Part shown: one piece after another, positions 1,981 to 49,287 of the stretch
Layout of the letters: each line of letters starts with the position of its first letter
How positions within the stretch are numbered: the stretch's first letter is position 1
Source of the DNA: an uncultured Candidatus Saccharibacteria bacterium
Lineage (GTDB): Bacteria; Patescibacteriota; Minisyncoccia; RBG-13-40-8-A
DNA: 64,000 bases
Direction: 5' to 3'
Assembly (NCBI GenBank): GCA_965231075.1
Contig: OZ246412.1
Location: 553,787-617,786 of the forward strand
The notes under the pieces: model-generated
Told to the model about the DNA's origin: nothing
What the model saw: the letters and a program-made list of their open reading frames with translations, nothing else
The model's database searches: none
Made by a program: the position numbers and the translations under genes

Positions 1981-2004
1981 ATTTTTACATTTTTAATTAA
2001 TTAT

Positions 2005-2075
2005 TCGGGCTGCCCGGATTTGAACCGGGACCACTGACTCCCGAAGCCAGCGTACTACCATTATACTACAGCCCG
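2005..2075 (-). tRNA. tRNA-Pro (anticodon CGG), no encoded 3' CCA
   Basis: Reverse complement folds as a cloverleaf: acceptor CGGGCTG/CAGCCCG, D-stem GTAT/GTAC, anticodon stem CTGGC/GTCAG with loop TTCGGGA (U33, G37), T-arm CCCGG-TTCAAAT-CCGGG, discriminator A. Genomic sequence after the discriminator is not CCA. Confidence 0.75.
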
Positions 2076-2079
2076 ATGA

Positions 2080-4434
2080 TTATTTTTTCTTTTTTAATAT
2101 TTTTTCTAATTCATCTCTGTCTAAAACCCAAAAGTTGTCTTTTTCTTTCGCATTTTCATCGTAAAACATCTCTCCCTTAATTTTAAATCCGGAATTTTTT
2201 AATACACCTTCCGAAAGTAGGTTTCTGGGGTTCGTGAAGGCTACAATTGTAGTTTTTTTTGATTTATTTAAAAGCGCAAAGCCAATTTGTCTAATTGCGC
2301 TCGGAACGTGTCCTCTTTCTTTATTTTTCTGTGGCAGGCCTTCATCGACAAGTCGCGCAAAACTCATTTCTAAAATTTCTGAATCTTTAGATAAGTCAAT
2401 TAACCCACTTTTTTTCAGATTAATGATCGTATCTTCTTCTGGGCTATAAAACCAAACAAATCCCTCCATTCGCCCTATCGCCTTTTCTCCGCAAATACCA
2501 TAAAAATATTCCTCCGAAAAATGTTTTTTAATCTCTTCTGTGGTATATGTGTCACCTGTCATCCATCTGCCCACTTCTGGTTGTGTATCAATATCTTGAA
2601 ACGCTTCTATATCTTTTGGGTTATTGGGGTCGGCCCTCTTAATCCATGCTGATTCTTGCTCAAAAACTTTCACTGGTCCCTCCTTTGGATTTTCGGGTAG
2701 TTTGCGATCCATAGACGGATTTTCTTCTGTTTTATTAATTTTCTTTATAAAGTCTGATATTTCCTTAACTGTTTCATTTGGTTCACAGTTATTTTTTATC
2801 CATCGACTGGCCTTTCTAGAATTCATTGTTTTGTCTTCATAAAGACTTAAAACTTCCTTTGATAATTCCTCGTTTGTTTGATAAAAAGCGTCAATGTTAG
2901 TTATCGTTGCGGTCCCAGTTTTAAAATCAAAAACCACAACTCCTCGCTCAAATAGTTTGTTTAGAGTATATACGGCAGCGTAATAATATTCATCACCATC
3001 AGATTTATCAAAAAGTTCCTCTAGTGAGTTTTCTAGGGCCGCAGAAGCCCACTCTTCTTTGGTTCCTTTTATTGCGCCTTTTTCGATTAATTTTGGTAGA
3101 AATTGTCGATAGAACTGTTCGGCTTTGACCTCATTAATAATCAAGCCCGGCTCTGCTCCTAATCTCTTCGCTCCCGGATCACCGTCTTTGTGAAAATGAC
3201 AGAATTCGTGAAATGAGGTGATAAAAAAAGACATTTTTAGACTATAGTGTTCTTGAGTATTACTAATTCGGAAATTTTTTTCTTTTGCTATAGCGTTTTG
3301 TAGTTTTTTTTGCTCAGCGAGAAAAATCATGCCAACCGATTCTCCCATTTGAGCGGTAGTTTTCATAGCTAATCCGGCGCCATAGTCTCCGATAGAATTA
3401 ACAACCGTAAACTTCTTTTCTGTTACATTTTTTGCTAGCTCGGTATGACCCATTTGTTCGAGCTCCTGAGAAATTATTTCTTGACAAGCAGATAGATTTT
3501 TTTCTTCTTCTGGAGACTTTAGTGTAATTTTTATTTCTGGATCAAAATATGGCGGCTTAAAGTATCCTCCTGTATATTCTGTTGGAACTATTAAAATCGG
3601 AAAATCAGACGAAGTTGATTGTCTATAAAGTTCGCTTACTAATTTATATTGTTCACTGATTTTTTCTATATCCTTTTCCCTATAAGAATCGCTCAGTGCT
3701 ATTAAATATTTTTGAAAGATATCCCCGCCGGGAAACTTTTGCCATTCAATTGGCATTTCACTTATCTCTTTAAATTTTCGACAAAGATATTGTGTGTCAC
3801 GATTAAATAATTCGTTGATTGTGTATGATTTTTCTTCTCCGGGCAAATAAAATTGAGTTGATAAAGACCCTTCTTTTGGCTGGGGCGACAGCCTTGAAAA
3901 TGCCAAGAAGCGGATAAAAAGATTATCGGCACGCATCGAAGCATCAAGAAGTTTTGTGGTAACATCACGTAGTTCTAAATTTAGTCCTAACTTTTCAAGA
4001 TCTTTTTCTTCGGCATGGGCGATGACCTCTTGATAGGCTTTTGTTTCCATGTGTCGCACGACGTGAGCAGCAACGGCGAGCAAAACCTCCCTTCTTTGTC
4101 CTTGAATTTCCGGTATTCCTTCGGGCCAATTATTAATAACCGTGTCAACAATTTCCTTTAGGGGAATGTTTTTAATTGACGAAACTTTTTCATGGAACGC
4201 GCCGACTTTGGTTTGTACTTGTTCTAAAACCACTCTTTGAACATTTTCGAAAAGTTCTAGAGAATTTTCCCACGGACCAATTTTTTCCGGCAAATCTTTT
4301 TTCCATTCAGTATAACCATCTAATAGCCCTAATGTTTTATAAATCCCTCTCAGTCCTGGCTCAGAATCAATTAATTTTTCTTGTTTAGTTCTTGGTTTTG
4401 GTTCCTTACTTTCTCCCATGTTTATTTTATCCAA
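2080..4434 (-). CDS. Hypothetical 784-aa multidomain protein: central HExxH (zincin-like) motif plus C-terminal GNAT-like acetyltransferase domain
   Basis: Long uninterrupted ORF. HEFCHFH motif; C-terminal ~150 aa (RGHVPSAIRQIGFALL...VAFTNPRNLLSEGVLKNSGFKIKGEMFYD) has GNAT motif-A/B-like spacing. Confidence 0.5.
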   Translation of the reverse strand: MDKINMGESKEPKPRTKQEKLIDSEPGLRGIYKTLGLLDGYTEWKKDLPEKIGPWENSLELFENVQRVVLEQVQTKVGAFHEKVSSIKNIPLKEIVDTVINNWPEGIPEIQGQRREVLLAVAAHVVRHMETKAYQEVIAHAEEKDLEKLGLNLELRDVTTKLLDASMRADNLFIRFLAFSRLSPQPKEGSLSTQFYLPGEEKSYTINELFNRDTQYLCRKFKEISEMPIEWQKFPGGDIFQKYLIALSDSYREKDIEKISEQYKLVSELYRQSTSSDFPILIVPTEYTGGYFKPPYFDPEIKITLKSPEEEKNLSACQEIISQELEQMGHTELAKNVTEKKFTVVNSIGDYGAGLAMKTTAQMGESVGMIFLAEQKKLQNAIAKEKNFRISNTQEHYSLKMSFFITSFHEFCHFHKDGDPGAKRLGAEPGLIINEVKAEQFYRQFLPKLIEKGAIKGTKEEWASAALENSLEELFDKSDGDEYYYAAVYTLNKLFERGVVVFDFKTGTATITNIDAFYQTNEELSKEVLSLYEDKTMNSRKASRWIKNNCEPNETVKEISDFIKKINKTEENPSMDRKLPENPKEGPVKVFEQESAWIKRADPNNPKDIEAFQDIDTQPEVGRWMTGDTYTTEEIKKHFSEEYFYGICGEKAIGRMEGFVWFYSPEEDTIINLKKSGLIDLSKDSEILEMSFARLVDEGLPQKNKERGHVPSAIRQIGFALLNKSKKTTIVAFTNPRNLLSEGVLKNSGFKIKGEMFYDENAKEKDNFWVLDRDELEKILKKKK

Positions 4435-5861
4435 TATTTTTCACGAATTTTGAGATCTTCCTCCTCTTTTTTTTCTTCAATTTTGCCTTTGGCTAATTTG
4501 CGTAGAACTTCGAGATTTTCTTCATTTAATTCTACAACTCTTCTCTCCAAGTATTTTTTATTGTTATTTTTTGGCTCTTCAATCACCTCTGCTAACAAAA
4601 CATCTAAAATTGCTCCCACTTTTGGACTAGGTTCAATTTTTAACAATTTCATTATATCTGTGCCATTAATTTTCAACATCTTTGCCGAAATTGGATCCTT
4701 GGAAACTTTTTCAATCATATATTCAATCGTTCTTAAACGATAGGGCTTTTCTTTTGGCCTACCCATACCCAATCGATCGGCAACGCGCAAATTTATCAAA
4801 TCAACAATATTTTCTTTGCCCACTCTTTTTAACAATCTTCTTGCGCCGGCATCAGTTAATTTCTCTGGATCAGAAACGAACATGTGGTTTTTAACCAATA
4901 AGACAACCTGATCAATAAATTTATTAGAAAATTTCAGTCGTCTTAAAATTCTATCGGTAAATTTTGCACCTACATAATCGTGGTTATAAAATGTCGAATC
5001 TGGACCATTGCCCTGCTTGGTTTCGGGCTTCCCAATATCGTGAAACAGGGCTGCAACTTTAATCTCTAAACTAAAATCTTTTTTAGCTGCTTCGTCCAGC
5101 GCCCTCAAGGAATGTTCGTAGATATCGTAGACGTGGTGCTTATTTTGGCTTACGCCCACGCCCTTATCAAGTTCAGGCAAAATAAATTTTAGTAAATTTG
5201 TTTGTCGTAACAAATCGATGCCATTGGCCGCTCTCTTGGTTTGAAAAATCTTAATTAATTCATCTTTAATTCTTTCGTTAGAAATCATCTGAATTAATTC
5301 TGCACTCTTTTGAATCGCTTTAAAGGTTTTTTCCTCGATTTCAAAATTGAGAGTACAAGCAAACCTTACTGCTCTCAACATTCTTAATGCATCTTCGTCA
5401 AATCTTTTATTGGCATCTCCAACTGCGCGGATAATTTTTTTCTTTAAATCTTTTTGTCCGTCAAAAAAATCGATAACTCTTTTTCTTTCATCTAATGCTA
5501 AAGCATTAACAGTGAAATCTCTTCTGGCTAAGTCATCCTCTAGTTTTTGAGCGAAAGTTATCTCGTCGGGATGACGTTTGTCAGAATATTTTCCCTCTAA
5601 ACGAAACGGAGTGATTTCAACGACCTTCAAGGTGTCATCTTTAGAATCGGTAATCACACTAACCGTGCCAAACATATTTTCGTAAAAATTTCTCGGAAAT
5701 AATTTCTGAATTTGTTTGGGATTAGCGTTGGTGGTGATGTCCCAATCCTTAGGTTTTTCGCCCAATATTAAATCTCTAACACAGCCCCCAACCGCGTATG
5801 CTTCGTAACCATTTTTGATCAATTTTTCCAATATTAAATTAACTTCCTTGGGAATTGTCAT
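4422..5861 (-). CDS. cca: CCA-adding tRNA nucleotidyltransferase with HD domain
   Basis: GGCVRDLILGEKPKDWDITT Pol-beta NTase motif at the N-terminus; HD motif (FHDIGK) downstream; 479 aa. Confidence 0.85.
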   Translation of the reverse strand: MTIPKEVNLILEKLIKNGYEAYAVGGCVRDLILGEKPKDWDITTNANPKQIQKLFPRNFYENMFGTVSVITDSKDDTLKVVEITPFRLEGKYSDKRHPDEITFAQKLEDDLARRDFTVNALALDERKRVIDFFDGQKDLKKKIIRAVGDANKRFDEDALRMLRAVRFACTLNFEIEEKTFKAIQKSAELIQMISNERIKDELIKIFQTKRAANGIDLLRQTNLLKFILPELDKGVGVSQNKHHVYDIYEHSLRALDEAAKKDFSLEIKVAALFHDIGKPETKQGNGPDSTFYNHDYVGAKFTDRILRRLKFSNKFIDQVVLLVKNHMFVSDPEKLTDAGARRLLKRVGKENIVDLINLRVADRLGMGRPKEKPYRLRTIEYMIEKVSKDPISAKMLKINGTDIMKLLKIEPSPKVGAILDVLLAEVIEEPKNNNKKYLERRVVELNEENLEVLRKLAKGKIEEKKEEEDLKIREKYWIK

Positions 5862-6544: not shown

Positions 6545-7684
6545 CTACAATATTCCCAATAGATAATAAGTTCCCAGTCCTAATAGAATAATCGCTTCAA
6601 TTAAACTTAGCCATTTCATTGCTTTCCCAGATACAATTTTTATGTTCATCGTGAATACAGCAATCAGAAAAACAATGATTTCATCTAGCATATAAAACAA
6701 AATATAAACCAGGAGATGAAAAATGTAACTAATCAGAGAAACTTTGGCATGCGCCATAACCCCCGCGAACAGAACCGGTATCACTGCCGAGCAAGGAAAT
6801 TCGACAATTGTGATTACGAAAGCAAAAATTACTACCCCTACAATTAATCCCCAAATCCCTCCTGATTTTTGAAATGCCTCTTGAATTTTTAAAGAATGCT
6901 TGGTAACAATTTTGTTGTCTTGTTTGCAAATTAAATCTTGTTTTCGAGATTTTAAGAATTGTTTTAGAAAATATATTGAACCCAATATTCCCAAGATTCC
7001 TACAAATAAATTCATTATCTTCAGAACTGGACTTAACAAATAAAATAATTGATACCACAAAAAGATCAATGCGCCATAAATTATCGCAGTAATTAAAATA
7101 TATAGTCCGCCGAATAAAATTATTTTTGGCCGTGATTTTAAAATCAGCACCAACCCCAAAATCATGATCAGTGCCCCCAATGAACAAACACTAAATCCAT
7201 CAAAAAACCCCAAAATTATCGCTTGCATTAACAATGAATATTTGCTCAAATCTATTTCCCCCAAGATTGGAATTGTGATCTTGTTTTCGTCTTTTTTGTC
7301 TGGCGTTTCGAAATTTAATTGTTTCTCAATCGAATTGACGATCTGTTTACCGATTCCATTTTCATTATCAAAACCCAGAAAAAAATCCTCACCGACAAAA
7401 GTCATTGGCACGGCACCCAAATATTTTTCGGCATTGTGTTTTTTAACCGAATCAATTAATAGTTGTCTATGGGTTGTGTCGGTAATTAAGTAGCGATTAA
7501 TTTTCACTTCAGGATAATTTGGTTCGATTTTATCTAAAAATGTATTTTCTGCCTTACAATGAACGCAGGTTTCAGAATAGAAGAAATTTATTTCTAGCTT
7601 CGTTTCTGCGTACGCAAAAAACGGGGTTACAATCGTTAGCCCGATTAAAGCAACCAAAAACAAATTAAATGATTTTTTTGTCAT
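6545..7684 (-). CDS. Membrane thiol:disulfide oxidoreductase: N-terminal thioredoxin-like CxxC domain fused to a DsbD/CcdA-family polytopic domain
   Basis: Signal/TM segment, then a CVHC (CxxC) motif; multiple TM helices with conserved Cys in CSLG and FPCSAV segments. Confidence 0.5.
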   Translation of the reverse strand: MTKKSFNLFLVALIGLTIVTPFFAYAETKLEINFFYSETCVHCKAENTFLDKIEPNYPEVKINRYLITDTTHRQLLIDSVKKHNAEKYLGAVPMTFVGEDFFLGFDNENGIGKQIVNSIEKQLNFETPDKKDENKITIPILGEIDLSKYSLLMQAIILGFFDGFSVCSLGALIMILGLVLILKSRPKIILFGGLYILITAIIYGALIFLWYQLFYLLSPVLKIMNLFVGILGILGSIYFLKQFLKSRKQDLICKQDNKIVTKHSLKIQEAFQKSGGIWGLIVGVVIFAFVITIVEFPCSAVIPVLFAGVMAHAKVSLISYIFHLLVYILFYMLDEIIVFLIAVFTMNIKIVSGKAMKWLSLIEAIILLGLGTYYLLGIL

Positions 7685-22443: not shown

Positions 22444-25320
22444 ATGCTCACAAAATTTCAAAAAACGATTATATTCTCATTGGTCTTTTGTCTGATGTTC
22501 GGTTTGGTCTTTAATATATTTATTATAAAACCGAAATCAGTTGAGGCGACCGACGGAGGCGCGGGATGGGTACAGGCGATTAAAGATCTGGTACTTGATG
22601 CTGTTGGCTGGGCTGTAACAGATCAAATCTTACAACCACTAAAACAAAAGATTCAAGATTGGGGCATGGGCAAAACTAGCGACGACAACAAACCATTTTT
22701 TGTTATTGACTGGAAAGAGTTTGCCAACGAAGCTTTAGATGTCGCTTCAGCAAGATTTATAGAAGAAGTGGGACTAACCAAGCTTTGTGGTCCACTAAGA
22801 ATTAGTATTGGTCAAAACCCATTGTTTACAACATATTATACTGACCAACCGAAATATAAAAATTATGCTGCCTGTACACTCGACTCTGTTATAAGTAACG
22901 TGGATTCATTTCTCGATAATCCATCGATTAGCGTTTTTGGTTGGAATGCTTGGTCAGTTTTAACACAACCAAATAATAATTTTCTGGGCGCCTACCTGTT
23001 GGCTAGTCAAAGAAGCATAGAAATCGCCAATGAGGAAGCTAAGGCCAAAGACAAAGAAGTGGCTGCTAGTGGTGGGGTGAAAAACGAGACCACCACAAAC
23101 GAAACCGATACAGATGCTTGCCTTAAAAAGTGTGATTCAGAATTTGACGTGAATAGAGAAAACAATGGTCAGCTGTGGGAAGATTGCACCGATAAATGTG
23201 AAACCACAACTAAAGGAGTCCCCACAAAAAGTTCAGTTAAAAACCTCGGTTCGACAATAAAGAAAAATATCGACGACGCTCTGGGAGCAGATATGAGTAG
23301 AATCATTAGTGCTGATGAAATTAGTGAGCTCGTTGGTGTATTTTTTAGTGCCGTTATAAACAAAGCAATCGATGGGTTGGGGTTGGTACCATCTAGTGCG
23401 AATAAAACCGCAGCAGAAGAATCTCGCGATGAAATGAATGACCTTTATTCCTATGGAGATGGCAGCAATGAGATGACCGAAGAAACAAAACAGAATATTC
23501 GTTTGTCAGTTTTAAACGGAATGCTTAAGGGCGTGCAGATGATATCTAGATCAACAGCAAAATGTGAAGACGAAGATACCATGATAACCGATTTGGATTT
23601 TAATAAAAATATTAGTGATATATACTCAGCACAATTAGAGGCGCTGTATGTGGGAACTGCAGGGGTAAATCTCAAACCGGATTTTATAGTTTTGGATTCT
23701 CCGTATGCGCCATTTTCTCTATATGGTTATGGATGGAGCAATATTCCGGGAGTTAAAATGCCAGCTAAATGCAAGAAAATAACTGCCCAGGCAGGATTAG
23801 GATCGTCTGGTTCTTGTACAAATATCGTCAGCGGTCTTGAACCAAATTATAGTCCCAACTGTAAGAGATGCATATATGATGGAAGCGAATTAAATTGTCC
23901 TCCTGCGCCGTATCCTCCGTTCAGCAGCGTATCGGGGGATGTGGTAACGCCAGTGATCCCAGACGATGCAACGATTTTAGCCAAACAAGATTTTTATAAT
24001 AAATGCATGGAATGGTATGACGTAACTAAAAATAGATGCAGTGATTGCGTGAAGAAGGCTGATGCTAAATGTAATCAGGGGGACGAAATTGAAAAACAAG
24101 CATGCATTGAAGATGTCTGTAATAATTATGATGACCTTAAGCCACACGTTGCGTCTACTATCACTAGTAGCGTCGATTTTTACAACAAATGTCTATTAGA
24201 AGAAAAAAAATCTTCCTGCTTTACTTGTCTTAAAGAATATTTTATGCCTGCTTCATACTGTGACACTATGACTGAGTTTACAGCCAGATCATTAATCAAA
24301 TATCCTGCTGTCGTACTAGCGACAAATGTTGACGACGGTCGTTCTGTGGGAAGATACGACTCTACTTTTCAGGAAGCATTTGAAGATAGAGCTACCGAAT
24401 GTAATAACGATAAAAACAGAGGAGCAGCAATCGAAGTAAGCCTAATCTGCAGAATTATGCCAGAGTTCAAACATAATGGCATACAAATCTGTAGACAATA
24501 TTGTATGGGAAGCGGAATGACTGAAATAGAATTGAACGACATTTTAGATAATCGGCCAACTGATGGAGACTGTAATAACAAAAAAATAGGGATTGGTGGC
24601 TCAATTAACGTTTGGGATGTTGTTAAGAATGGAAACTTTCAACAACTAAGCAAATGTTGTGCAGCCACTAACACCACAAGCGTAAAAAAATATTCTACTT
24701 GTATAGGAGCATCGCAGCCCGCCGAAATCTGTACTTATGCGGTGCCACCAGAACAAGAGCCTTGGTGTTATTGTAGTGAAGGATATCGTCCACTGGGATT
24801 TACAAGAACCGGATTTCCACGATCTAGTGGATTGGGTGGGGATTGTAGTAATACTTCAGTTATTGATTGGACTACCAGTGGAATATCAGCGATACCATCT
24901 GGAAGAGAGGTTTACATATATACCAGCAATCAACCAGTAGACAGTGATATATATTATATTGCTAAGGGAGAATGCACCGAGAAAGACAATAATTGGGAGA
25001 ATGCCACTGGTCAAGGACTCGAAGATGGACAAGTTGACGAAGCTTATCATAATTTCACTATGAGTGAAATAACTCAACCATCGAGCGTAATTTGTTCCGG
25101 AAGTGGCGCAAATAGTGATTTTCAGTGCAATGAGGCAGCGGGACAATCGAGTCTCAATCTGGGGGTTTACCACACACAATTATTAGGACTTGGAGCCCCC
25201 GAATCTTCCACAGGGGTCCATATGTGTGCAAAATGCGAATCGTCTGATTCCGGATATCCGAGTTATGGATACAAAGATAAGTCAGGATATACGTCGGATC
25301 AATGCACTGGCAAACAATAA
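22444..25320 (+). CDS. Large (958 aa) secreted cysteine-rich protein, hypothetical surface component of the T4SS-like operon
   Basis: Signal/TM at the N-terminus; more than 60 Cys in clustered CxxC/CxnC patterns across the length; overlaps the next gene's start. Confidence 0.6.
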   Translation: MLTKFQKTIIFSLVFCLMFGLVFNIFIIKPKSVEATDGGAGWVQAIKDLVLDAVGWAVTDQILQPLKQKIQDWGMGKTSDDNKPFFVIDWKEFANEALDVASARFIEEVGLTKLCGPLRISIGQNPLFTTYYTDQPKYKNYAACTLDSVISNVDSFLDNPSISVFGWNAWSVLTQPNNNFLGAYLLASQRSIEIANEEAKAKDKEVAASGGVKNETTTNETDTDACLKKCDSEFDVNRENNGQLWEDCTDKCETTTKGVPTKSSVKNLGSTIKKNIDDALGADMSRIISADEISELVGVFFSAVINKAIDGLGLVPSSANKTAAEESRDEMNDLYSYGDGSNEMTEETKQNIRLSVLNGMLKGVQMISRSTAKCEDEDTMITDLDFNKNISDIYSAQLEALYVGTAGVNLKPDFIVLDSPYAPFSLYGYGWSNIPGVKMPAKCKKITAQAGLGSSGSCTNIVSGLEPNYSPNCKRCIYDGSELNCPPAPYPPFSSVSGDVVTPVIPDDATILAKQDFYNKCMEWYDVTKNRCSDCVKKADAKCNQGDEIEKQACIEDVCNNYDDLKPHVASTITSSVDFYNKCLLEEKKSSCFTCLKEYFMPASYCDTMTEFTARSLIKYPAVVLATNVDDGRSVGRYDSTFQEAFEDRATECNNDKNRGAAIEVSLICRIMPEFKHNGIQICRQYCMGSGMTEIELNDILDNRPTDGDCNNKKIGIGGSINVWDVVKNGNFQQLSKCCAATNTTSVKKYSTCIGASQPAEICTYAVPPEQEPWCYCSEGYRPLGFTRTGFPRSSGLGGDCSNTSVIDWTTSGISAIPSGREVYIYTSNQPVDSDIYYIAKGECTEKDNNWENATGQGLEDGQVDEAYHNFTMSEITQPSSVICSGSGANSDFQCNEAAGQSSLNLGVYHTQLLGLGAPESSTGVHMCAKCESSDSGYPSYGYKDKSGYTSDQCTGKQ

Positions 25321-27572
25321 TGGTAATAAAATTTATGAAAACAAACATGAAATCAAAATATAAAATTTCAACAATAACAATGATCGTAAGTATTGTTATG
25401 TTGGGAGTTATTGTCCCTGCGTATGCCCACGCAGGAGTCTTTAGTTTTATCGGAGATATCTTAGGAAATGTGGCCGCGGACTTGTTGTCGCTCTTAGTTG
25501 GTCTGATTCAGGGATTGTTGGGATTGTTAATAAAAGTTGGAGCTGCTTTTTTTGAGACAATGTTGAATTTTGGTTTCACTAGGAATTCTAGCGTTGATAT
25601 CGTTAAAACCGGATGGACGGTAACTAGAGATTTTGCAAATATGTTGTTTATACTCTTTATGATTGTGATTGCGTTTGCGACAATATTAAGAATAGAGGGC
25701 TACGGTATAAAAAAATTATTACCGAAGGTTATTGGTATAGCTCTTTTAATCAACTTCAGCATGGTACTATGTTCGGTGGTTGTTGACTTCAGCAATATTA
25801 CCGCCAATTTTTTTGTTAAGGATATAAACACCAAACTAAATGGCAAAACCATGGGAGCAGTGTTTGTGGATAGCATGAATCTATCCAAAATATTAACGTC
25901 TCAGATTGATTATAGTGGTTGTGACAAAACTTATCGAGAGGAACTATCGTCTTGTGATGAAATGAGAAAAACCATGGTGCCGGGTGATTATCAAAAATGT
26001 AGAACAAACGCCCAAAACGTAAGGGTTGCTTGTGAACAACAACTAGCAATAGCCGCACAAAACGCAGCTAAGCCCAAAAACGGATTAATTGAACTTATGG
26101 ATGTATTAATCTCTGGAATCTTTGGATCAATATTGTTGCTAATTGTAGTATTCACATTCTTCGCTGGAGGAGTCCTCTTGTTGATTAGAATGATATCCAT
26201 ATGGTTCTTGATCATGATCGTTCCCTTAGTTTTTATTTGCTACATAATACCGTCACTAAACTCTAATTGGAAAAAGTGGTGGGGAAAATTTCTCAATTGG
26301 TGTATTTTTGCACCTGCCTACAGTTTCTTTATCTGGTTAGCAATCAAAGTATCTATAGAACAATCCAATAAGAAAATCGTTGCAGGCATATCTAGTGCCA
26401 ATAATTATATATCAGACCCCGGAGTAACTAATAATCCGTTTATATTTAACCCTGGTCAAAATTTAATAAGTTTTGCATTTATCATTGCCCTTTTGGTCGG
26501 TGGGCTAATTGTAGCTAAATCTCTCGGAGTGTATGGAGCAGACACTGTGATGAAAATTGCAACCAACGCTAGAAAGGGTGCGACCGATTGGGCAAAGAGA
26601 AAAAGTACTGGCGCAGCTAAAGAGTTGGGCGCTAGAGGTGCTGGGTCATTGAAACAGGGGGTGGGGTCAATACTAAAAATGAAATACAGCCCATTTAAGA
26701 GTACGGGCAGGAGAATGGAAGCAGGTGGCAAGTTAATGAAACAGGACTCTGCTAGTGCCAAGGAAGTTGAAGCGTACAAGAAACGATTAGCTGTAATGTC
26801 GAGGGAAGATATGGTGGCCGAAATAAATTCCCCGCATTTACGAAAATCATTTAAATTAGCAGCCATACAAGAGGCTCAAAAGCGTGGAGACTTATCCAAA
26901 ACTGACAACCTCGACGCGATAAGATCATCTGTCAACACCCTCAAGGCTTACGGATACGATAAAAGCTCTTCGGATCTTCAGAATAATAGAGCAGACGCCA
27001 TTGAGGACAGAACAAAACAAAAAGAAATTGTCGAAAAAATGGCAAAAGAAGGTAAGCTTGGAGAGTTGTCTCTGCAAGCGATAAAGGATGAAAACGTAAC
27101 AGCATTATTGGCAGAGGTGTGTGAGCCACAACAACTCGAAGCAATAAGAAACACTTCTCGTCAACATGCTGAAGCTCTAGATAAGGCCCTAGAAGATATT
27201 ACCAATCCATTAAATGCAGCTGCCATGACAGCTAAACATATAAATCCTGCTCTAGAGAAAATACAACACGCTTATGCGGCTCAAACGGGCAAACTTGATA
27301 GATTAACCGCTGGCCCAACAGGTACGGCGCAATCATTTATAAAAGAGGTTGGGGCAAATTACGCCCTTAAGCGTGTTAAATCTGTCCCCGCAACAGCAAT
27401 GCCCGATATCGTGCCAAATATTCCCGTAAATAAACTTAAATCAATGATAGCAGAAATGGAAGATACTGCCGCAAAAGAAGTTATAACATACATCAAACAT
27501 ACACTGCCAAATACGCACGATTTATGGAAGCTTGTAGACAAAGATGAGTCCCTAAAGAATATCGCCCCATAA
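25302..27572 (+). CDS. Polytopic membrane protein, VirB6/TrbL-like candidate with a C-terminal coiled-coil extension
   Basis: Signal peptide, then at least 6 hydrophobic helices (aa ~40-420), then ~330 aa of hydrophilic K/E/A-rich tail; position in the operon before VirB3/VirB4-like genes. Confidence 0.4.
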   Translation: MHWQTIMVIKFMKTNMKSKYKISTITMIVSIVMLGVIVPAYAHAGVFSFIGDILGNVAADLLSLLVGLIQGLLGLLIKVGAAFFETMLNFGFTRNSSVDIVKTGWTVTRDFANMLFILFMIVIAFATILRIEGYGIKKLLPKVIGIALLINFSMVLCSVVVDFSNITANFFVKDINTKLNGKTMGAVFVDSMNLSKILTSQIDYSGCDKTYREELSSCDEMRKTMVPGDYQKCRTNAQNVRVACEQQLAIAAQNAAKPKNGLIELMDVLISGIFGSILLLIVVFTFFAGGVLLLIRMISIWFLIMIVPLVFICYIIPSLNSNWKKWWGKFLNWCIFAPAYSFFIWLAIKVSIEQSNKKIVAGISSANNYISDPGVTNNPFIFNPGQNLISFAFIIALLVGGLIVAKSLGVYGADTVMKIATNARKGATDWAKRKSTGAAKELGARGAGSLKQGVGSILKMKYSPFKSTGRRMEAGGKLMKQDSASAKEVEAYKKRLAVMSREDMVAEINSPHLRKSFKLAAIQEAQKRGDLSKTDNLDAIRSSVNTLKAYGYDKSSSDLQNNRADAIEDRTKQKEIVEKMAKEGKLGELSLQAIKDENVTALLAEVCEPQQLEAIRNTSRQHAEALDKALEDITNPLNAAAMTAKHINPALEKIQHAYAAQTGKLDRLTAGPTGTAQSFIKEVGANYALKRVKSVPATAMPDIVPNIPVNKLKSMIAEMEDTAAKEVITYIKHTLPNTHDLWKLVDKDESLKNIAP

Positions 27573-28630: not shown

Positions 28631-30427
28631 ATGTCATTATTTAAGAAATCAAAACCTAAAAACCAAGGAAATGTTTCTGAAATTGAAGAAATTCAGGAAA
28701 TTGAGAACAGCTTAGCAGACACAATTTCACCATCTGCCCTCCAAATTACATCTAATTATATCCAGATTGGCGAGAAATTTGCCCAAACATTTTTTATTAT
28801 CACTTATCCCCGATTTCTCACCGTAAATTGGTTATCGCCAATCATCAATTTAGATAGAATATTTAATTTGGCGATGTTTGTGCACCCGACCGATACCGGA
28901 ATAATTTTAAAAAAACTTCGACGCAAAATTACGCAAATTGAATCTCAAATCAATTCTGAACAAGAAGCAGGAAAAATCAGGAACCCTATATTAGAAACTG
29001 CCCGAGGCGATGTCGAAGAAATGAGAGATCGACTGATTCAAGGCACAGAAAAGTTTTTTAAATATTCCCTCTATATCACTATTTTTGAAGACTCTGTGGA
29101 TAAACTTAAAGAAGCCGAGGAACAGATCATGGGACTGTTTGAGGCAAAAATGATTTATGCCCGACCGGCGCTGTTTCAACAACAGATTGGTCTAAATTCA
29201 ACGTTACCATTTGGCAAAGATCATTTGTTTATCACAAATTCTATGAATACTGCACCTCTTTCTACGGTATTTCCATTTGTATCGTCAAATCTATCGTCCA
29301 ACAAAGGTATTCTTTATGGCATTAATCGCCATAACAATAGTCTGATCATTTTTGATAGGTTCTCCATGGAAAACGGCAACATGGTTATTTTTGGCAAGTC
29401 CGGAGGAGGAAAATCTTATGCTGTGAAAGTGGAGATATTGAGGTCGTTAATGTTCGGAACAGACGTAATTGTTGTAGACCCAGAGAATGAATACCAGCAT
29501 TTGGCCGAAACCGTCGATGGTGCATATTTTAAAATATCATTAACTTCTGATAGCCACATTAATCCCTTTGATTTGTCTTTGCCCGATGAAGATGAAACCA
29601 CCGAAGATGTCTTGCGGTCAAAAATAATGGATTTAATTGGTCTCTTAAGGGTGGCTCTGGGGGAACTGACCCCAGAAGAAAATTCTATTTTAGACAGAGC
29701 ATTAACTGAAACCTACGCATCAAAAGATATTACGTTTCAATCTGATCTTAAGAACGTTACCCCGCCAGTTATGCAGGACCTGGAAACAGTTTTAAATAAC
29801 ATGAAAGGGGGTGATAGGATCGCTAAACGACTTGAGAGATACACTAAGGGCAGTTTTTCTGGATTTTTAAATCAACCCACAAATATTGATGTTAATAAGA
29901 ATCTCATTGTGTTTAGCACGCGCGATATGGAAGACGAATTAAAACCAGTGGCAATGTATCTGATCTTACAATATATTTGGAATCTAATTCGTTCTCAAAT
30001 GAAAAAACGCATTATGATCGTCGACGAGGCGTGGTGGATGTTGAAAAGCGAAGCTGGCGGGTCATTTCTTCATGGCATTGCTAAAAGATGTAGAAAATAC
30101 TGGCTAGGACTAACCACGATCACTCAAGATATTCCTGATTTCATGAATTCCCCTTATGGTAAACCGATTGTCTCTAACTCTTCAATCCAAATACTTTTTA
30201 AACAATCCCCCGCGACAATTGATGTCGTACAACAAACATTTAATCTAACTGATGAAGAAAAATACCTTCTTTTACAAGCCGGTGTCGGCGAGGGAATTTT
30301 CTTTGCCGGATTAAAACATGCTGCTATAAAAGTAGTCGCATCCTACACCGAAGATCAAATCGTAACAACTAATCCAGAACAGATTTCTAAAATTAATCAA
30401 GCGAAAGAAGAATTAAAAACAATATGA
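28631..30427 (+). CDS. virB4: VirB4/TrbE/CagE-family type IV secretion ATPase
   Basis: Walker A FGKSGGGKS, Walker B IMIVDEAWWM, downstream LTTITQD motif; no TM segments. Confidence 0.8.
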   Translation: MSLFKKSKPKNQGNVSEIEEIQEIENSLADTISPSALQITSNYIQIGEKFAQTFFIITYPRFLTVNWLSPIINLDRIFNLAMFVHPTDTGIILKKLRRKITQIESQINSEQEAGKIRNPILETARGDVEEMRDRLIQGTEKFFKYSLYITIFEDSVDKLKEAEEQIMGLFEAKMIYARPALFQQQIGLNSTLPFGKDHLFITNSMNTAPLSTVFPFVSSNLSSNKGILYGINRHNNSLIIFDRFSMENGNMVIFGKSGGGKSYAVKVEILRSLMFGTDVIVVDPENEYQHLAETVDGAYFKISLTSDSHINPFDLSLPDEDETTEDVLRSKIMDLIGLLRVALGELTPEENSILDRALTETYASKDITFQSDLKNVTPPVMQDLETVLNNMKGGDRIAKRLERYTKGSFSGFLNQPTNIDVNKNLIVFSTRDMEDELKPVAMYLILQYIWNLIRSQMKKRIMIVDEAWWMLKSEAGGSFLHGIAKRCRKYWLGLTTITQDIPDFMNSPYGKPIVSNSSIQILFKQSPATIDVVQQTFNLTDEEKYLLLQAGVGEGIFFAGLKHAAIKVVASYTEDQIVTTNPEQISKINQAKEELKTI

Positions 30428-40502: not shown

Positions 40503-40781
40503 ATGCAACACATTAAATCAATAATTATAAACAAAACGGCAAATCGCATAGTTCAAAAAGTTGATAACAATATTGTCTGTAAAGAAGTAGAAAAAATGAT
40601 AAAACAAAAAAGTGTCGAGGAATTCGAGACACTTTTTTATAAAAACAAAAACATCTATATTAGATGTTTTAATGCAGCAACGGCCAACGAAATAAGTTTA
40701 ATACAGGAAGAGATAAAGCAGGAAATAAACGATTTATTTAAAAAGACGGTGTTAAATCGAATAATTATCAAAATCGATTAA
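40503..40781 (+). CDS. Hypothetical small protein (92 aa) downstream of dnaN
   Basis: ORF only; tight spacing after dnaN. Confidence 0.35.
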   Translation: MQHIKSIIINKTANRIVQKVDNNIVCKEVEKMIKQKSVEEFETLFYKNKNIYIRCFNAATANEISLIQEEIKQEINDLFKKTVLNRIIIKID

Positions 40782-49025: not shown

Positions 49026-49287
49026 AGAGAATAGAAATAGGCGTAAAATACCTATTTTTATTTATGCTCTTTTTCAATAACCTGTAGGCAATAAGGGTAA
49101 CCAAATTTTTTATTAAAATTTACCCTTTGGAGCTTTTCTTAGTTTAGGATGTTCCGGTTCCCTCCTTGATGAGGTCTCAACTGGAGTATTCCTCGGAAAA
49201 TTTCTAAACTTCGGATCCTAAGCCGATGTCACTTGCCTACAGATTATTGGAAGAGAGCTTATCTCGACACAGTGTCGAGATTTTTTT
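49026..49287 (+). ncRNA. Unclassified structured ncRNA candidate (~260 nt) with its own promoter and intrinsic terminator
   Basis: No ORF. Long-range complementarity (acctgtaggcaa ... ttgcctacagat) enclosing local hairpins (aagggtaa...ttaccctt; ctcc...ggag; cggatcctaagccg). Ends in the terminator atctcgacacagtgtcgagat plus a T7 run (49261-49287). Confidence 0.5.

What the first reader, a model, noticed from the sequence alone, without database searches (positions are those of the whole stretch)
2080..4434. 784-aa orphan protein combining an HExxH zincin-like motif with a C-terminal GNAT-like domain
A single long ORF between tRNA-Pro and cca carries HEFCHFH, a candidate metallopeptidase zinc site, ~360 aa into the protein, and ends in a ~150-aa segment with GNAT-like motif spacing. 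The N-terminal ~350 aa is unrecognisable. A protease (or hydrolase) plus acetyltransferase combination in one polypeptide is unusual and could represent a toxin/effector or a protein-modifying enzyme.
Basis: partly seen in the sequence, partly recalled or inferred. Interest (0 to 1): 0.55.

Follow-up and report, generated by a model that had tools for sequence, protein, structure and literature searches.

The report
DPP III-like metallopeptidase fused to acetyltransferase
This gene from a tiny symbiotic-type (Patescibacteria) bacterium encodes a real two-part enzyme, a divergent zinc peptidase of the dipeptidyl-peptidase III type joined to a RimJ/RimL-type N-acetyltransferase, from an uncharacterised family that elsewhere sits in an operon with other amine- and peptide-modifying enzymes.

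Summary
The ORF is real (2080-4434, minus strand; the likely true start is the ATG at 4419, giving 779 aa). It is not an orphan: there are 35 close homologues and about 200 cluster representatives, all from Patescibacteria or metagenomes.

An AlphaFold model (pLDDT 84.8) and Foldseek show that aa ~25-560 have the two-lobe fold of dipeptidyl-peptidase III (M49). A family profile hits the two characterised HExxH-type bacterial DPP III enzymes at E = 4-5e-9. H404, E405 and H408 are invariant and E430 is nearly so ("EVKAE", matching M49 "EEAKAD"). The DPP III transition-state His is replaced by an invariant Tyr478. No Peptidase_M49 Pfam hit is found, and the nearest Pfam family is DUF7897.

Residues ~580-779 are an Acetyltransf_3 (RimJ/RimL-type) GNAT. 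This GNAT type also exists as a stand-alone protein.

GNAT domains were fused to this module at least three separate times: type A at the C-terminus, type A at the N-terminus, and an unrelated type B at the C-terminus. Unfused relatives lie in a conserved operon with a GARS-like ATP-grasp ligase, an MprF-C-like aminoacyl-tRNA transferase, SET and GNAT genes (16 of 18 well-flanked loci).

Most likely function: a metal-dependent hydrolase acting at a free peptide N-terminus, coupled to N-acetylation. The substrate is unknown.

The parts
2080..4419 (-). Coding sequence of the two-domain protein (779 aa plus the stop codon at 2080-2082). The longest ORF extends to a TTG at 4434.
   Evidence: ORF list. 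The start region reads ...TGG ATA AAA TAA (cca stop) AC ATG GGA.... P0001 is 100% identical and 779 aa.
2740..4347 (-). N-terminal module (aa ~25-560): a two-lobe DPP III (M49)-like gluzincin fold.
   Evidence: AF2 pLDDT is mostly 85-98 over this range. Foldseek hits: 6eom E = 2e-8 with TM 0.60 over 529 columns, plus 5zum, 5na8, 5yfb and 5e3c. Profile against PDB sequences: 5zum 4e-9, 6eom 5e-9.
3196..3210 (-). HEFCH (H404-E405-x-x-H408): the predicted metal-binding and catalytic motif on the active-site helix (aa 394-406).
   Evidence: Invariant in 35 close homologues and in 33 sequences down to 15% identity. Aligns with HELMH of CoDPP III and HEISH of CaDPP III.
3118..3132 (-). EVKAE (E430-x-x-A433-E434): the predicted third metal ligand motif on the following helix (aa 422-446).
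   Evidence: E430 is conserved in at least 90% of sequences and A433 is invariant. Aligns with IEEAKAD / IEECKAD of the DPP III enzymes. In CaDPP III the second Glu of that motif binds Zn (PMC5805324).
2986..2988 (-). Tyr478, invariant across the superfamily, at the position of the DPP III transition-state His.
   Evidence: Invariant in A1 and A3. Aligns with chain H438 of 5zum, which is His465 in the paper's numbering and stabilises the scissile carbonyl.
2683..2739 (-). Disordered interdomain linker (aa 561-579).
   Evidence: pLDDT is below 50 for aa 562-574 and 577-579. Unfused homologues end here, and stand-alone GNATs begin just after it.
2083..2682 (-). C-terminal GNAT domain (aa 580-779), Acetyltransf_3 / RimJ-RimL type ('type A').
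   Evidence: Scanned alone, aa 575-779 give Pfam PF13302 at 26.2 bits against a cutoff of 25.4, E = 1.5e-5. Foldseek hits: 3fbu TM 0.74, AAC(6')-Ib, 3igr RimJ. Stand-alone homologues are 48-60% identical.
2272..2322 (-). KERGHVPSAIRQIGFAL (aa 700-716): the beta4-alpha3 loop and start of helix alpha3, the expected acetyl-CoA pyrophosphate site.
   Evidence: Aligns with QGKGIMRRAV of RimJ 3igr. The Gly is kept in 14 of 17 type-A GNATs, and S707, A708, R710 and Q711 are invariant.
2170..2223 (-). NLLSEGVLKNSGFKIKGE (aa 733-750): GNAT motif B of the RimJ/RimL kind (N-x-x-S...G-F).
   Evidence: N733, L734, S736, F745 and G749 are invariant in 17 sequences, as is Y753 just beyond. Aligns with PRNEKSAKVLAALGFVKEG of 3igr.
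4422..5861 (-). cca (tRNA nucleotidyltransferase) immediately upstream, 2 nt from the ATG. Syntenic neighbour within the window's clade only.
   Evidence: ORF. The orthologue in L001 carries the Pfam PolyA_pol/HD architecture. cca adjacency is seen in L001, L006 and L025-L027, and in L009 next to the GNAT alone.
2004..2076 (-). tRNA-Pro(CGG), 3 nt downstream of the stop codon.
   Evidence: ARAGORN and Rfam.

Best explanation
The gene encodes a probably cytoplasmic, bifunctional enzyme.

Module 1 (aa ~25-560) is a divergent relative of the short bacterial HExxH-type dipeptidyl-peptidases III. It is a two-lobe gluzincin. H404, H408 and E430 are predicted to hold one metal ion (most likely Zn), E405 to act as the general base, and the invariant Tyr478 to take over the transition-state role of the DPP III His. 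By analogy it clamps a short peptide, or a peptide-like aminoacyl conjugate, that has a free amino terminus between the lobes and hydrolyses an amide bond near that terminus.

Module 2 (aa ~580-779) is a RimJ/RimL-type GNAT that uses acetyl-CoA to acetylate a primary amine. The most economical reading is that it acts on the alpha-amine of the same substrate or of the product that module 1 exposes ('cut, then cap', or 'cap to protect from cutting').

Shown: the folds, the motif conservation, the homology, the repeated independent fusions and the operon association. Inferred: the metal identity, hydrolytic activity, substrate class, and the order and coupling of the two reactions.
For: Fold. The AF2 model has pLDDT 84.8. 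Foldseek's top hits are all DPP III (6eom 2e-8, TM 0.60 over the whole 524-aa target), followed by GNATs for the C-terminus.

Sequence homology. The family profile hits CoDPP III (5zum) at 4e-9 and CaDPP III (6eom) at 5e-9 over about 210 positions that include both zinc motifs. Both are biochemically proven dipeptidyl peptidases with a pentapeptide HExxH (PMC5805324, PMC9820243).

Conservation. H404, E405, H408 and Y478 are invariant and E430 is at least 90% conserved down to 15% identity. The secondary structure fits a zincin: beta-sheet, then the HExxH helix, then the Glu helix.

GNAT. The domain passes the Pfam threshold when scanned alone. The acetyl-CoA loop Gly and motif B are conserved in 17 fused and stand-alone sequences.

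Functional coupling.
- GNATs were fused at least three times independently: type A at the C-terminus (window, P0002-5), type A at the N-terminus (P0055; hhalign E = 5e-5), and the unrelated type B at the C-terminus (P0015/20/30/36/37; in-frame in L049 and L067).
- Type B also occurs as a separate neighbouring gene (L023, L051, L063, L074).
- 16 of 18 well-flanked distant loci carry a GARS-like ATP-grasp, an MprF-C-like aminoacyl-tRNA transferase, SET, GNAT or C39 gene beside the module.

Precedent for protease-then-N-acetyltransferase logic: microviridin maturation (PMC5934393).
Against: - No Peptidase_M49 Pfam hit was found for any of 33 members.
- The DPP III catalytic His is absent, replaced by Tyr.
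- The first Glu of the M49 motif 'EExxAE' is not conserved.
- The HExxH-to-Glu spacing (21 residues) equals that of the non-hydrolytic PolE/DUF6421 oxidases (21-23) rather than CaDPP III (28).
- The GNAT hit is borderline, and its Q/R-x-x-G-x-G/A loop is degenerate (KERGHV).
- I could not inspect model coordinates, so the metal-site geometry and the relative orientation of the two active sites are unverified.
- The window's own clade lacks the ATP-grasp/transferase/SET operon, so transferring that context to this gene is indirect.
- There is no experimental datum for any family member.
Confidence: 0.55

Rival explanations
1. Module 1 is not a peptidase. It is a redox or other non-hydrolytic metalloenzyme built on the DPP III scaffold, like PolE/DUF6421, an Fe2+/tetrahydropterin-dependent amino-acid desaturase. 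The protein would then modify a free amino acid, which the GNAT acetylates.
For: Foldseek also hits PolE structures (9j30 and others; E = 1.6e-5, TM 0.52 relative to target). The DUF6421 motif HE/DxxH-x(21-23)-E matches the window's spacing exactly (H408-x21-E430), and DUF6421 also lacks the DPP III catalytic His (PMC12614342). DUF6421 genes co-localise with amino-acid-modifying enzymes (same paper), as this family does.
Against: The family profile hits true DPP III enzymes at about 1e-9 but finds no PolE chain at E <= 10, and there is no DUF6421 Pfam hit. The module is about 560 aa and aligns over the whole two-lobe 524-aa CaDPP III, whereas PolE is about 370 aa. The second motif E-x-K-A-E/D resembles M49 EE(A/C)KAD. 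E405 is strictly Glu (DUF6421 tolerates Asp). Tyr is a common oxyanion-stabilising residue in zincins (general knowledge). DUF6421 is reported mainly from actinobacteria.
Confidence: 0.13
2. Only the peptidase-like module is catalytic. The GNAT domain is a degenerate, non-catalytic appendage that serves for substrate or partner binding, regulation or oligomerisation.
For: The full-length protein falls below the Pfam cutoff (22.2 against 25.4). The acetyl-CoA loop deviates from Q/R-x-x-G-x-G/A, and the Gly is lost in 3 of 17 relatives. The domain is dispensable: close relatives in the same syntenic slot lack it (L006, L026).
Against: The same domain exists as a stand-alone protein with 48-60% identity and strong conservation of S-A-x-R-Q, N-x-x-S, G-F and Y753, which argues for an autonomous, selected activity. 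The RimJ structure 3igr has a comparably imperfect loop (QGKGIM). An unrelated GNAT type that passes Pfam Acetyltransf_1 (26.5 against 20.7) was fused independently.
Confidence: 0.15
3. It is a secreted or injected toxin or effector that acts on host proteins.
For: The gene diverges faster than its neighbours: N-module 59-82% and GNAT 69% identity where cca and RNase J are 86-89%. The domain is gained and lost within a fixed slot. SET and GNAT partners recall effector toolkits (general knowledge).
Against: The N-terminus is hydrophilic with no hydrophobic signal-like segment by eye (no predictor was run). The G+C content matches the flanks. The gene is embedded 2-3 nt from cca and tRNA-Pro. 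No secretion, immunity or mobile-element genes are adjacent. The DPP III cleft accepts short peptides, not folded proteins (PMC9820243).
Confidence: 0.05
4. The fusion is an assembly or annotation artefact: two genes joined by a sequencing error.
For: Fused and unfused forms, and stand-alone GNATs, all exist.
Against: The identical 779-aa protein is recorded from two contigs in two sources. Four further fused orthologues come from NCBI, ENA, JGI and Logan assemblies, and L025 and L027 are fused too. The reading frame is continuous through a conserved linker.
Confidence: 0.02

Closest known systems
Short bacterial HExxH-type dipeptidyl-peptidases III (MEROPS M49): CaDPP III (6eom) and CoDPP III (5zum)
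   Same: Size is about 550 aa with a two-lobe fold (Foldseek E = 2e-8, TM 0.60). It has a pentapeptide HExxH and a second motif E-x-K-A-E/D on the next helix. The profile-to-sequence E-value is 4-5e-9 over about 210 residues.
   Different: Identity is only 13-14%. There is no Peptidase_M49 Pfam match. The first Glu of 'EE' is not conserved. The ligand spacing is 21 residues rather than about 28. The transition-state His (CoDPP III His465) is replaced by an invariant Tyr. It carries a fused GNAT and is restricted to Patescibacteria.
Pfam DUF7897 (PF25448), uncharacterised
   Same: This is the nearest sequence family. Ten of 33 superfamily members hit it (best 1.6e-46), and several core-family members hit it just below threshold. 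It has the same HExxH...ExKA(D/E)...Y signature.
   Different: The window protein itself does not hit it. The window's family forms a separate tier (E < 1e-30 within the family, 1e-23 to 1e-9 to the DUF7897 tier). No function or publication exists for DUF7897.
PolE / DUF6421 Fe2+/pterin-dependent amino-acid desaturases
   Same: It has a DPP III-derived fold, the HExxH-x(21-23)-E spacing, no DPP III catalytic His, and a genomic association with amino-acid-modifying enzymes.
   Different: No sequence-level hit was found. PolE is about 370 aa against about 560 aa here. It is mainly actinobacterial and sits in natural-product clusters.
RimJ/RimL-family GNATs (Pfam Acetyltransf_3), e.g. 3igr and 3fbu
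   Same: It has the GNAT fold (TM 0.66-0.74), the N-x-x-S...G-F motif B, and passes the Pfam threshold as an isolated domain. Stand-alone homologues are labelled RimJ/RimL by JGI.
   Different: It is very divergent (13-16% identity to solved structures), has an atypical acetyl-CoA loop, is fused to a peptidase-like module, and its acceptor is unknown.
Plant Nudix-DPP III fusion proteins
   Same: These are a precedent for an HExxH-type DPP III module fused to a second, unrelated catalytic domain (PMC5805324).
   Different: The partner there is an N-terminal Nudix hydrolase, not a GNAT, and the proteins are eukaryotic.
Microviridin (graspetide) maturation: ATP-grasp ligases, a protease and the MdnD N-acetyltransferase
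   Same: It shares the logic of a protease exposing a new N-terminus that a GNAT then acetylates, in a cluster with ATP-grasp enzymes and a C39-type peptidase (PMC5934393).
   Different: The ATP-grasp here is GARS/PurD-like, not microviridin-type. No precursor-peptide gene was seen. An MprF-C-like aminoacyl-tRNA transferase and SET genes are present. The analogy is functional only.

Membership tests
Peptidase family M49 (DPP III) | Two-lobe DPP III fold with the metal site at the base of the upper lobe | tested here: met
   Foldseek hits: 6eom E = 2e-8 with TM(target) 0.60 over 529 columns, plus 5zum, 5na8, 5yfb and 5e3c. The model pLDDT is 84.8.
Peptidase family M49 (DPP III) | First zinc motif HEXXGH, or HEXXH in the short bacterial and plant subgroup | tested here: met
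   HEFCH at aa 404-408 is invariant and aligns with HELMH / HEISH. The pentapeptide form is accepted in M49 (PMC5805324).
Peptidase family M49 (DPP III) | Second motif EEXR(K)AE(D), whose second Glu binds zinc | tested here: inconclusive
   The sequence is N-E430-V-K-A-E434. The liganding Glu and K-A-E are kept, but the first Glu is variable and the spacing is 21 residues rather than about 28.
Peptidase family M49 (DPP III) | Catalytic or transition-state His of conserved region 5 (yeast H578, CoDPP III His465) | tested here: not met
   It is replaced by the invariant Tyr478 in the profile alignment to 5zum.
Peptidase family M49 (DPP III) | Match to the curated family model (Pfam Peptidase_M49) | tested here: not met
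   The family does not appear among Pfam hits at E <= 10 for the window protein or at E <= 1 for 33 superfamily members.
Peptidase family M49 (DPP III) | Release of N-terminal dipeptides from oligopeptides | not testable with these tools
   This needs an enzyme assay.
GNAT superfamily, Acetyltransf_3 (RimJ/RimL type) | GNAT alpha/beta fold | tested here: met
   Foldseek hits: 3fbu TM 0.74, 2vqy 0.70, 3igr 0.66.
GNAT superfamily, Acetyltransf_3 (RimJ/RimL type) | Score at or above the Pfam PF13302 gathering threshold | tested here: met
   The isolated domain scores 26.2 bits against 25.4. The full-length protein scores 22.2, which is below threshold, so the result is borderline.
GNAT superfamily, Acetyltransf_3 (RimJ/RimL type) | Acetyl-CoA pyrophosphate loop Q/R-x-x-G-x-G/A between beta4 and alpha3 | tested here: inconclusive
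   The window has K-E-R-G-H-V. The Gly is kept in 14 of 17 sequences and the last G/A is absent, as it is in RimJ 3igr (Q-G-K-G-I-M).
GNAT superfamily, Acetyltransf_3 (RimJ/RimL type) | Acetyl-CoA-dependent N-acetyl transfer | not testable with these tools
   This needs an enzyme assay.
DUF6421 / PolE Fe-pterin oxidases | Motif HE/DxxH-x(21-23)-E | tested here: met
   The window has H404ExxH408-x21-E430. The motif definition comes from PMC12614342.
DUF6421 / PolE Fe-pterin oxidases | Sequence-level relationship to DUF6421 or PolE | tested here: not met
   No PolE chain was found at E <= 10 with either family profile, and no DUF6421 Pfam hit was found.
DUF6421 / PolE Fe-pterin oxidases | Fe2+/tetrahydropterin/O2-dependent activity | not testable with these tools
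   This needs an enzyme assay.
Pfam DUF7897 | Score at or above the PF25448 gathering threshold (27 bits) | tested here: not met
   The window protein gives no hit. Core-family members score 18-26.5 bits. Second-tier relatives reach 1.6e-46. The window's family is therefore a sister family, not a member.

The most novel reading that the evidence does not exclude
The DPP III-like module is the hydrolase component of a previously undescribed, Patescibacteria-restricted system. That system builds, trims and caps a peptide or aminoacyl conjugate at its amino end. The components would be a GARS-like ATP-grasp ligase and an MprF-C-like aminoacyl-tRNA transferase to add residues, the DPP III-like enzyme to remove them, and GNAT and SET enzymes to cap the exposed amine. 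The window's gene would be a hard-wired 'cut-and-acetylate' version of this system. The target could be a protein N-terminus (an N-degron-like editing pathway), a cell-envelope component or a small peptide metabolite.
Probability: 0.25. Interest if true: 0.75.

Novelty: new variant of a known kind. Interest (0 to 1): 0.5.

Why it matters
Patescibacteria have tiny genomes in which a large share of genes are uncharacterised. This work assigns a fold and a plausible chemistry to one such family: about 200 cluster representatives plus the uncharacterised Pfam DUF7897.

It defines a new branch of the DPP III clan with a His-to-Tyr change at the transition-state position, lying between classical M49 peptidases and the recently discovered PolE oxidases. 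It also documents a DPP III-GNAT architecture that I could not find described.

The repeated independent GNAT fusions, together with the conserved operon containing an ATP-grasp ligase, an aminoacyl-tRNA-transferase-like protein and SET methyltransferases, point to a peptide- or amine-editing pathway specific to these symbiotic bacteria. If confirmed, this would give a concrete biochemical handle on how they process scavenged peptides or modify proteins or envelope components. The hypothesis is directly testable with recombinant protein.

Tried and rejected
- **NCBIfam** gave no hit. phmmer of the single sequence against PDB gave nothing meaningful. Only family profiles were informative.
- **Paralogue test.** The 628-aa unannotated gene between cca and the orthologue in L001 is not a paralogue (BLASTP E > 3).
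- **Split-gene hypothesis rejected.** Unfused close homologues have no GNAT gene nearby, and stand-alone GNAT loci have no N-module remnant.
- **Single ancestral fusion rejected.** Type A and type B GNATs are unrelated at the sequence level (hhalign probability 0.4%). P0055 carries type A at the opposite end.
- **Direct DUF6421/PolE membership rejected** at the sequence level, but kept as a mechanistic rival.
- **Coordinates.** Model coordinates are not exposed, so I could not measure the H404/H408/E430 geometry or the interdomain orientation.
- **Literature.** Searches for DUF7897, for a DPP III-GNAT fusion, and for a SET/ATP-grasp/DUF2156 cluster in CPR bacteria returned nothing relevant.
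- **Window context.** The 64-kb window has no cluster partner (SET, LPG_synthase_C-like or GARS-like gene; tblastn at E <= 1e-3 found none).
- **Not looked for.** I did not search the operons for precursor-peptide genes. The intergenic gaps there are short (median about 290 nt).
Full report
**Observation**

The window carries one uninterrupted minus-strand ORF at 2080..4434 (784 aa from a TTG). It lies between a cca-type tRNA nucleotidyltransferase gene (4422..5861) and tRNA-Pro(CGG) (2004..2076), with an RNase J gene further downstream. The TTG overlaps the end of cca. An ATG at 4419, 2 nt after the cca stop codon, gives a 779-aa product. That product is identical to the database protein P0001 and matches the N-termini of the homologues. 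I use 779-aa numbering below.

HEFCHFH is present, with HExxH at aa 404-408. The protein has only 11 His. The expected number of HExxH motifs for this composition is 0.018. HExxH followed 18-30 residues later by Exx[AS][ED] appears in 0.025% of shuffles. G+C content (0.35-0.38) is the same as in the flanking genes.

**Not an orphan**

A word-indexed search found 35 homologues at E <= 1e-83. An exhaustive profile search found 203 cluster representatives at E <= 1e-3, of which 67 were below 1e-30. Scans of GTDB species genomes and of JGI metagenomes gave 15 and 55 loci. All named sources are Patescibacteria/CPR MAGs, namely Parcubacteria-group lineages and Paceibacterota. One record is labelled Gammaproteobacteria, probably wrongly.

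Most members are 560-600 aa and end where the window protein's linker begins. Only some carry an extra domain.

**N-terminal module: structure**

Pfam, NCBIfam and single-sequence PDB searches recognise nothing in aa 1-600. An AlphaFold2 model built on the 35-sequence alignment is confident (mean pLDDT 84.8, pTM 0.69). It has two domains separated by a disordered linker at aa 562-579.

Foldseek against the PDB puts dipeptidyl-peptidases III at the top. These are 6eom from Caldithrix abyssi (E = 2e-8, TM 0.60 relative to the 524-residue target, 529 aligned columns), then 5zum, 5na8, 5yfb and human 5e3c. The 'unrecognisable' first 350 residues are therefore the lower lobe of the DPP III fold.

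**N-terminal module: sequence**

At the sequence level, a profile of the core family hits 5zum weakly (E = 0.02). A broader profile that includes the distant tier hits 5zum at 4e-9 and 6eom at 5e-9 over about 210 positions. In those alignments HExxH falls on HELMH/HEISH, and the family motif I-x-E-x-K-A-E/D falls on IEEAKAD/IEECKAD.

Both enzymes are biochemically proven DPP III enzymes with the atypical pentapeptide motif. In CaDPP III the two His and the second Glu of EECKAD bind the zinc (PMC5805324; PMC9820243).

Across 33 sequences down to 15% identity the only invariant residues are G347, H404, E405, H408 and Y478 (apart from the initiator Met), with E430 at 90% or more. The secondary structure fits a gluzincin: a beta-sheet (336-366), the HExxH helix (394-406) and the following long helix that carries E430 (422-446).

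**How the module differs from M49**

- No member hits Pfam Peptidase_M49.
- The first Glu of 'EE' is not conserved.
- The ligand spacing is 21 residues, against about 28 in CaDPP III.
- Chain H438 of 5zum is His465 in the paper's numbering (offset 27, checked on HELMH). That His, with Zn, stabilises the scissile carbonyl. It aligns with the family-invariant Tyr478.

A defining M49 feature is therefore not met, so I do not file the protein as an M49 member. It belongs to a sister family in the same clan. The nearest curated family is the uncharacterised Pfam DUF7897, which 10 of 33 superfamily members hit (best 1.6e-46), though the window protein itself does not. No paper mentions DUF7897.

**The PolE rival**

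Foldseek also finds PolE (9j30 and others; E = 1.6e-5, TM 0.52). PolE/DUF6421 enzymes have a DPP III-derived fold but are Fe2+/tetrahydropterin-dependent amino-acid desaturases. They carry the motif HE/DxxH-x(21-23)-E and lack the DPP III catalytic His (PMC12614342). Both properties also fit the window protein.

Against this rival:
- Neither family profile finds any PolE chain at E <= 10, while true DPP III enzymes score about 1e-9.
- There is no DUF6421 Pfam hit.
- The module is full-size (about 560 aa, against about 370 aa for PolE) and aligns over the entire two-lobe CaDPP III.
- The K-A-E/D part of the second motif is M49-like.
- E405 is strictly Glu.
- Tyr is a well-known transition-state residue in other zincins (general knowledge).

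I keep the rival at about 0.13.

**C-terminal module**

The full-length protein scores just below the Pfam Acetyltransf_3 threshold (22.2 against 25.4 bits). Residues 575-779 scanned alone pass it (26.2 bits, E = 1.5e-5). Foldseek finds GNAT structures (3fbu TM 0.74, AAC(6')-Ib, RimJ 3igr, Rv1347c, SpeG). A profile of the five fused orthologues hits RimJ 3igr through the motif A/B region (E = 0.014).

A profile search found twelve stand-alone proteins of 198-252 aa that are 48-60% identical over 89-100% of the domain. JGI names some of them RimJ/RimL family. Their loci contain no remnant of the N-module.

In 17 fused and stand-alone sequences the following are invariant: E684, F687-A688-R689, D692, S707-A708-x-R710-Q711, N733-L734-x-S736, F745, G749 and Y753. 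The Gly of the acetyl-CoA loop is kept in 14 of 17. The loop (K-E-R-G-H-V) is imperfect, but so is that of RimJ 3igr (Q-G-K-G-I-M). I consider the domain probably active. This is not proven.

**The two modules belong together**

(i) Fusion happened repeatedly.
- Type A GNAT sits at the C-terminus in the window protein, P0002-P0005 and L025/L027.
- A type-A-like domain sits at the N-terminus of P0055 (hhalign E = 5e-5, 31% identity over 100 columns).
- An unrelated 'type B' GNAT sits at the C-terminus of P0015, P0020, P0030, P0036 and P0037. The type B domains are mutually homologous (E = 3e-21). They show no similarity to type A (probability 0.4%). P0036 passes Pfam Acetyltransf_1 (26.5 against 20.7 bits). 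The fusions are in-frame in L049 and L067.
- These fusions lie in different clades of the N-module tree, interleaved with unfused members.

(ii) Type B also occurs as a separate gene next to unfused N-module genes (L023, L051, L063, L074).

(iii) The fusion is not a split or merged gene artefact. Unfused close relatives have no GNAT neighbour. The same syntenic slot downstream of cca holds the fused gene (window, L001, L025, L027), the peptidase-like gene alone (L006, L026) or the GNAT alone (L009).

**A conserved operon in the distant branch**

Neighbours of unfused members recur:
- A roughly 430-aa GARS/PurD-like ATP-grasp protein. It hits GARS_A and GARS_C above threshold but only at E about 1e-9 to 1e-12, and GARS_N is not detected.
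- A roughly 300-aa soluble LPG_synthase_C/Acetyltransf_6 protein. This is the aminoacyl-tRNA-dependent transferase fold of the MprF C-domain.
- SET-domain proteins.
- Type-B GNAT.
- A small C39-like peptidase.
- Once, an MR_MLE enzyme.

A tblastn census of the metagenome loci, dereplicated at 97% nucleotide identity, gave 46 distinct genes, 44 of them in the distant branch. Of 18 distant-branch loci with at least 2.5 kb on both sides, 16 carry at least one of these genes: ATP-grasp 14, LPG_synthase_C-like 10, SET 6, GNAT-B 4 and C39 3. Across all 44 distant-branch loci, 50 of 68 such genes are co-directional with the N-module gene. The median gap is about 290 nt, and the gene orders vary.

As an informal control, none of these genes occurs in the 64-kb window, in the window-clade loci or in the stand-alone GNAT loci. 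The exception is one RimK-like ATP-grasp in L005. I found no description of such a cluster in the literature.

**Mechanism**

Shown:
- a DPP III-type two-lobe zincin scaffold with an intact, invariant HExxH/E/Y constellation;
- an autonomous RimJ/RimL-type GNAT;
- repeated fusion of the two;
- operon linkage to amide-forming enzymes (ATP-grasp, aminoacyl-tRNA transferase) and amine-capping enzymes (GNAT, SET).

Inferred. Module 1 binds a short peptide or aminoacyl conjugate by its free amino terminus, as DPP III does (PMC9820243), and hydrolyses an amide bond near it. E405 acts as the base and Tyr478 stabilises the intermediate. Module 2 acetylates the alpha-amine of the substrate or product. 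Both DPP III and RimJ/L-type enzymes recognise free N-termini, which makes a shared substrate end the simplest coupling. Microviridin maturation, in which a protease releases the core and the GNAT MdnD then N-acetylates it in a cluster with ATP-grasp enzymes, is a precedent for the logic (PMC5934393). The substrate is unknown.

The window's own clade lacks the operon. Instead it sits between cca and tRNA genes, and it evolves faster than its neighbours (N-module 59-82% and GNAT 69% identity where cca and RNase J are 86-89%). I cannot explain this faster divergence.

**Verdict**

'Orphan' and 'unrecognisable N-terminus' are wrong, and 'toxin/effector' has no support. The protein is a new variant of known kinds: a new branch of the DPP III clan with a novel GNAT fusion. 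Its gene-neighbourhood signal may mark a new CPR-specific peptide- or amine-editing pathway.

Interest is 0.5. The specific function stays open, but the hypotheses are directly testable.

Noticed in passing
L013 3170-8549; L015 1-3842; L034 3821-9093; L049 4661-10253; L039 4099-8614 (and about 25 further loci): A conserved, apparently undescribed Patescibacteria operon. It combines a GARS/PurD-like ATP-grasp, the DPP III-like gene and a soluble MprF-C-like (LPG_synthase_C) aminoacyl-tRNA transferase, with SET-domain, type-B GNAT and C39-like peptidase genes present in some loci. Gene order varies between loci.
   Followed up: partly
L001 6107-7993 (same as L010 2107-3990): In the closest relative (cca 89% identical), a 628-aa gene with no Pfam hit is inserted between cca and the orthologue. 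It is not a paralogue of the finding and is absent from the window.
   Followed up: partly
L009 4547-6654: A stand-alone type-A GNAT lies directly after a cca gene that is called as three fragments (100, 96 and 112 aa). This could be a pseudogene or frameshift errors in that assembly. S15 and NYN genes are nearby, as in the window.
   Followed up: no
window 2080-4419 compared with L001, L006, L025-L027: The gene diverges much faster than its housekeeping neighbours. The N-module is 55-82% and the GNAT 58-69% identical, where cca is 76-89% and RNase J 89%. The GNAT domain is present or absent within a fixed syntenic slot.
   Followed up: partly
P0055 (929 aa; not in the window): A family member carries the type-A-like GNAT at the N-terminus, with an insertion of about 60 aa inside the GNAT. 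It has a longer N-terminal region of about 100 aa of unknown nature.
   Followed up: partly
L023 / L063 about 5368-5420; L077 about 6633: The N-module gene appears frameshifted or split in these MAGs. This could be assembly error or pseudogenisation.
   Followed up: no
window 22444-27572 and 28631-30427: Two large adjacent ORFs (958 and 756 aa) with no Pfam hit lie just upstream of a TraG/VirB4-like P-loop ATPase. This may be a type IV secretion- or conjugation-like apparatus.
   Followed up: no
window 6545-7684 (-): A 379-aa multi-pass membrane protein has an N-terminal thioredoxin-like CxxC segment (ETCVHCK) and no Pfam hit at E <= 1e-4.
   Followed up: no
window 45949-47508 (-): A 519-aa protein with PKD and Lamin-tail (LTD) domains, probably a surface protein. 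A type II/IV secretion ATPase (49286-50956) and a class A PBP (40778-43156) are nearby.
   Followed up: no
L022 (CAYZRL010000012.1): This MAG is labelled 'uncultured Gammaproteobacteria' but carries the CPR-restricted gene with SET and Acetyltransf_6 neighbours. It is probably a mis-binned or mislabelled record.
   Followed up: no
L005 4298-5110 (-): A RimK/ATP-grasp_3 gene lies convergent with an unfused window-clade homologue (P0009). It is the only ATP-grasp neighbour seen in that clade.
   Followed up: no
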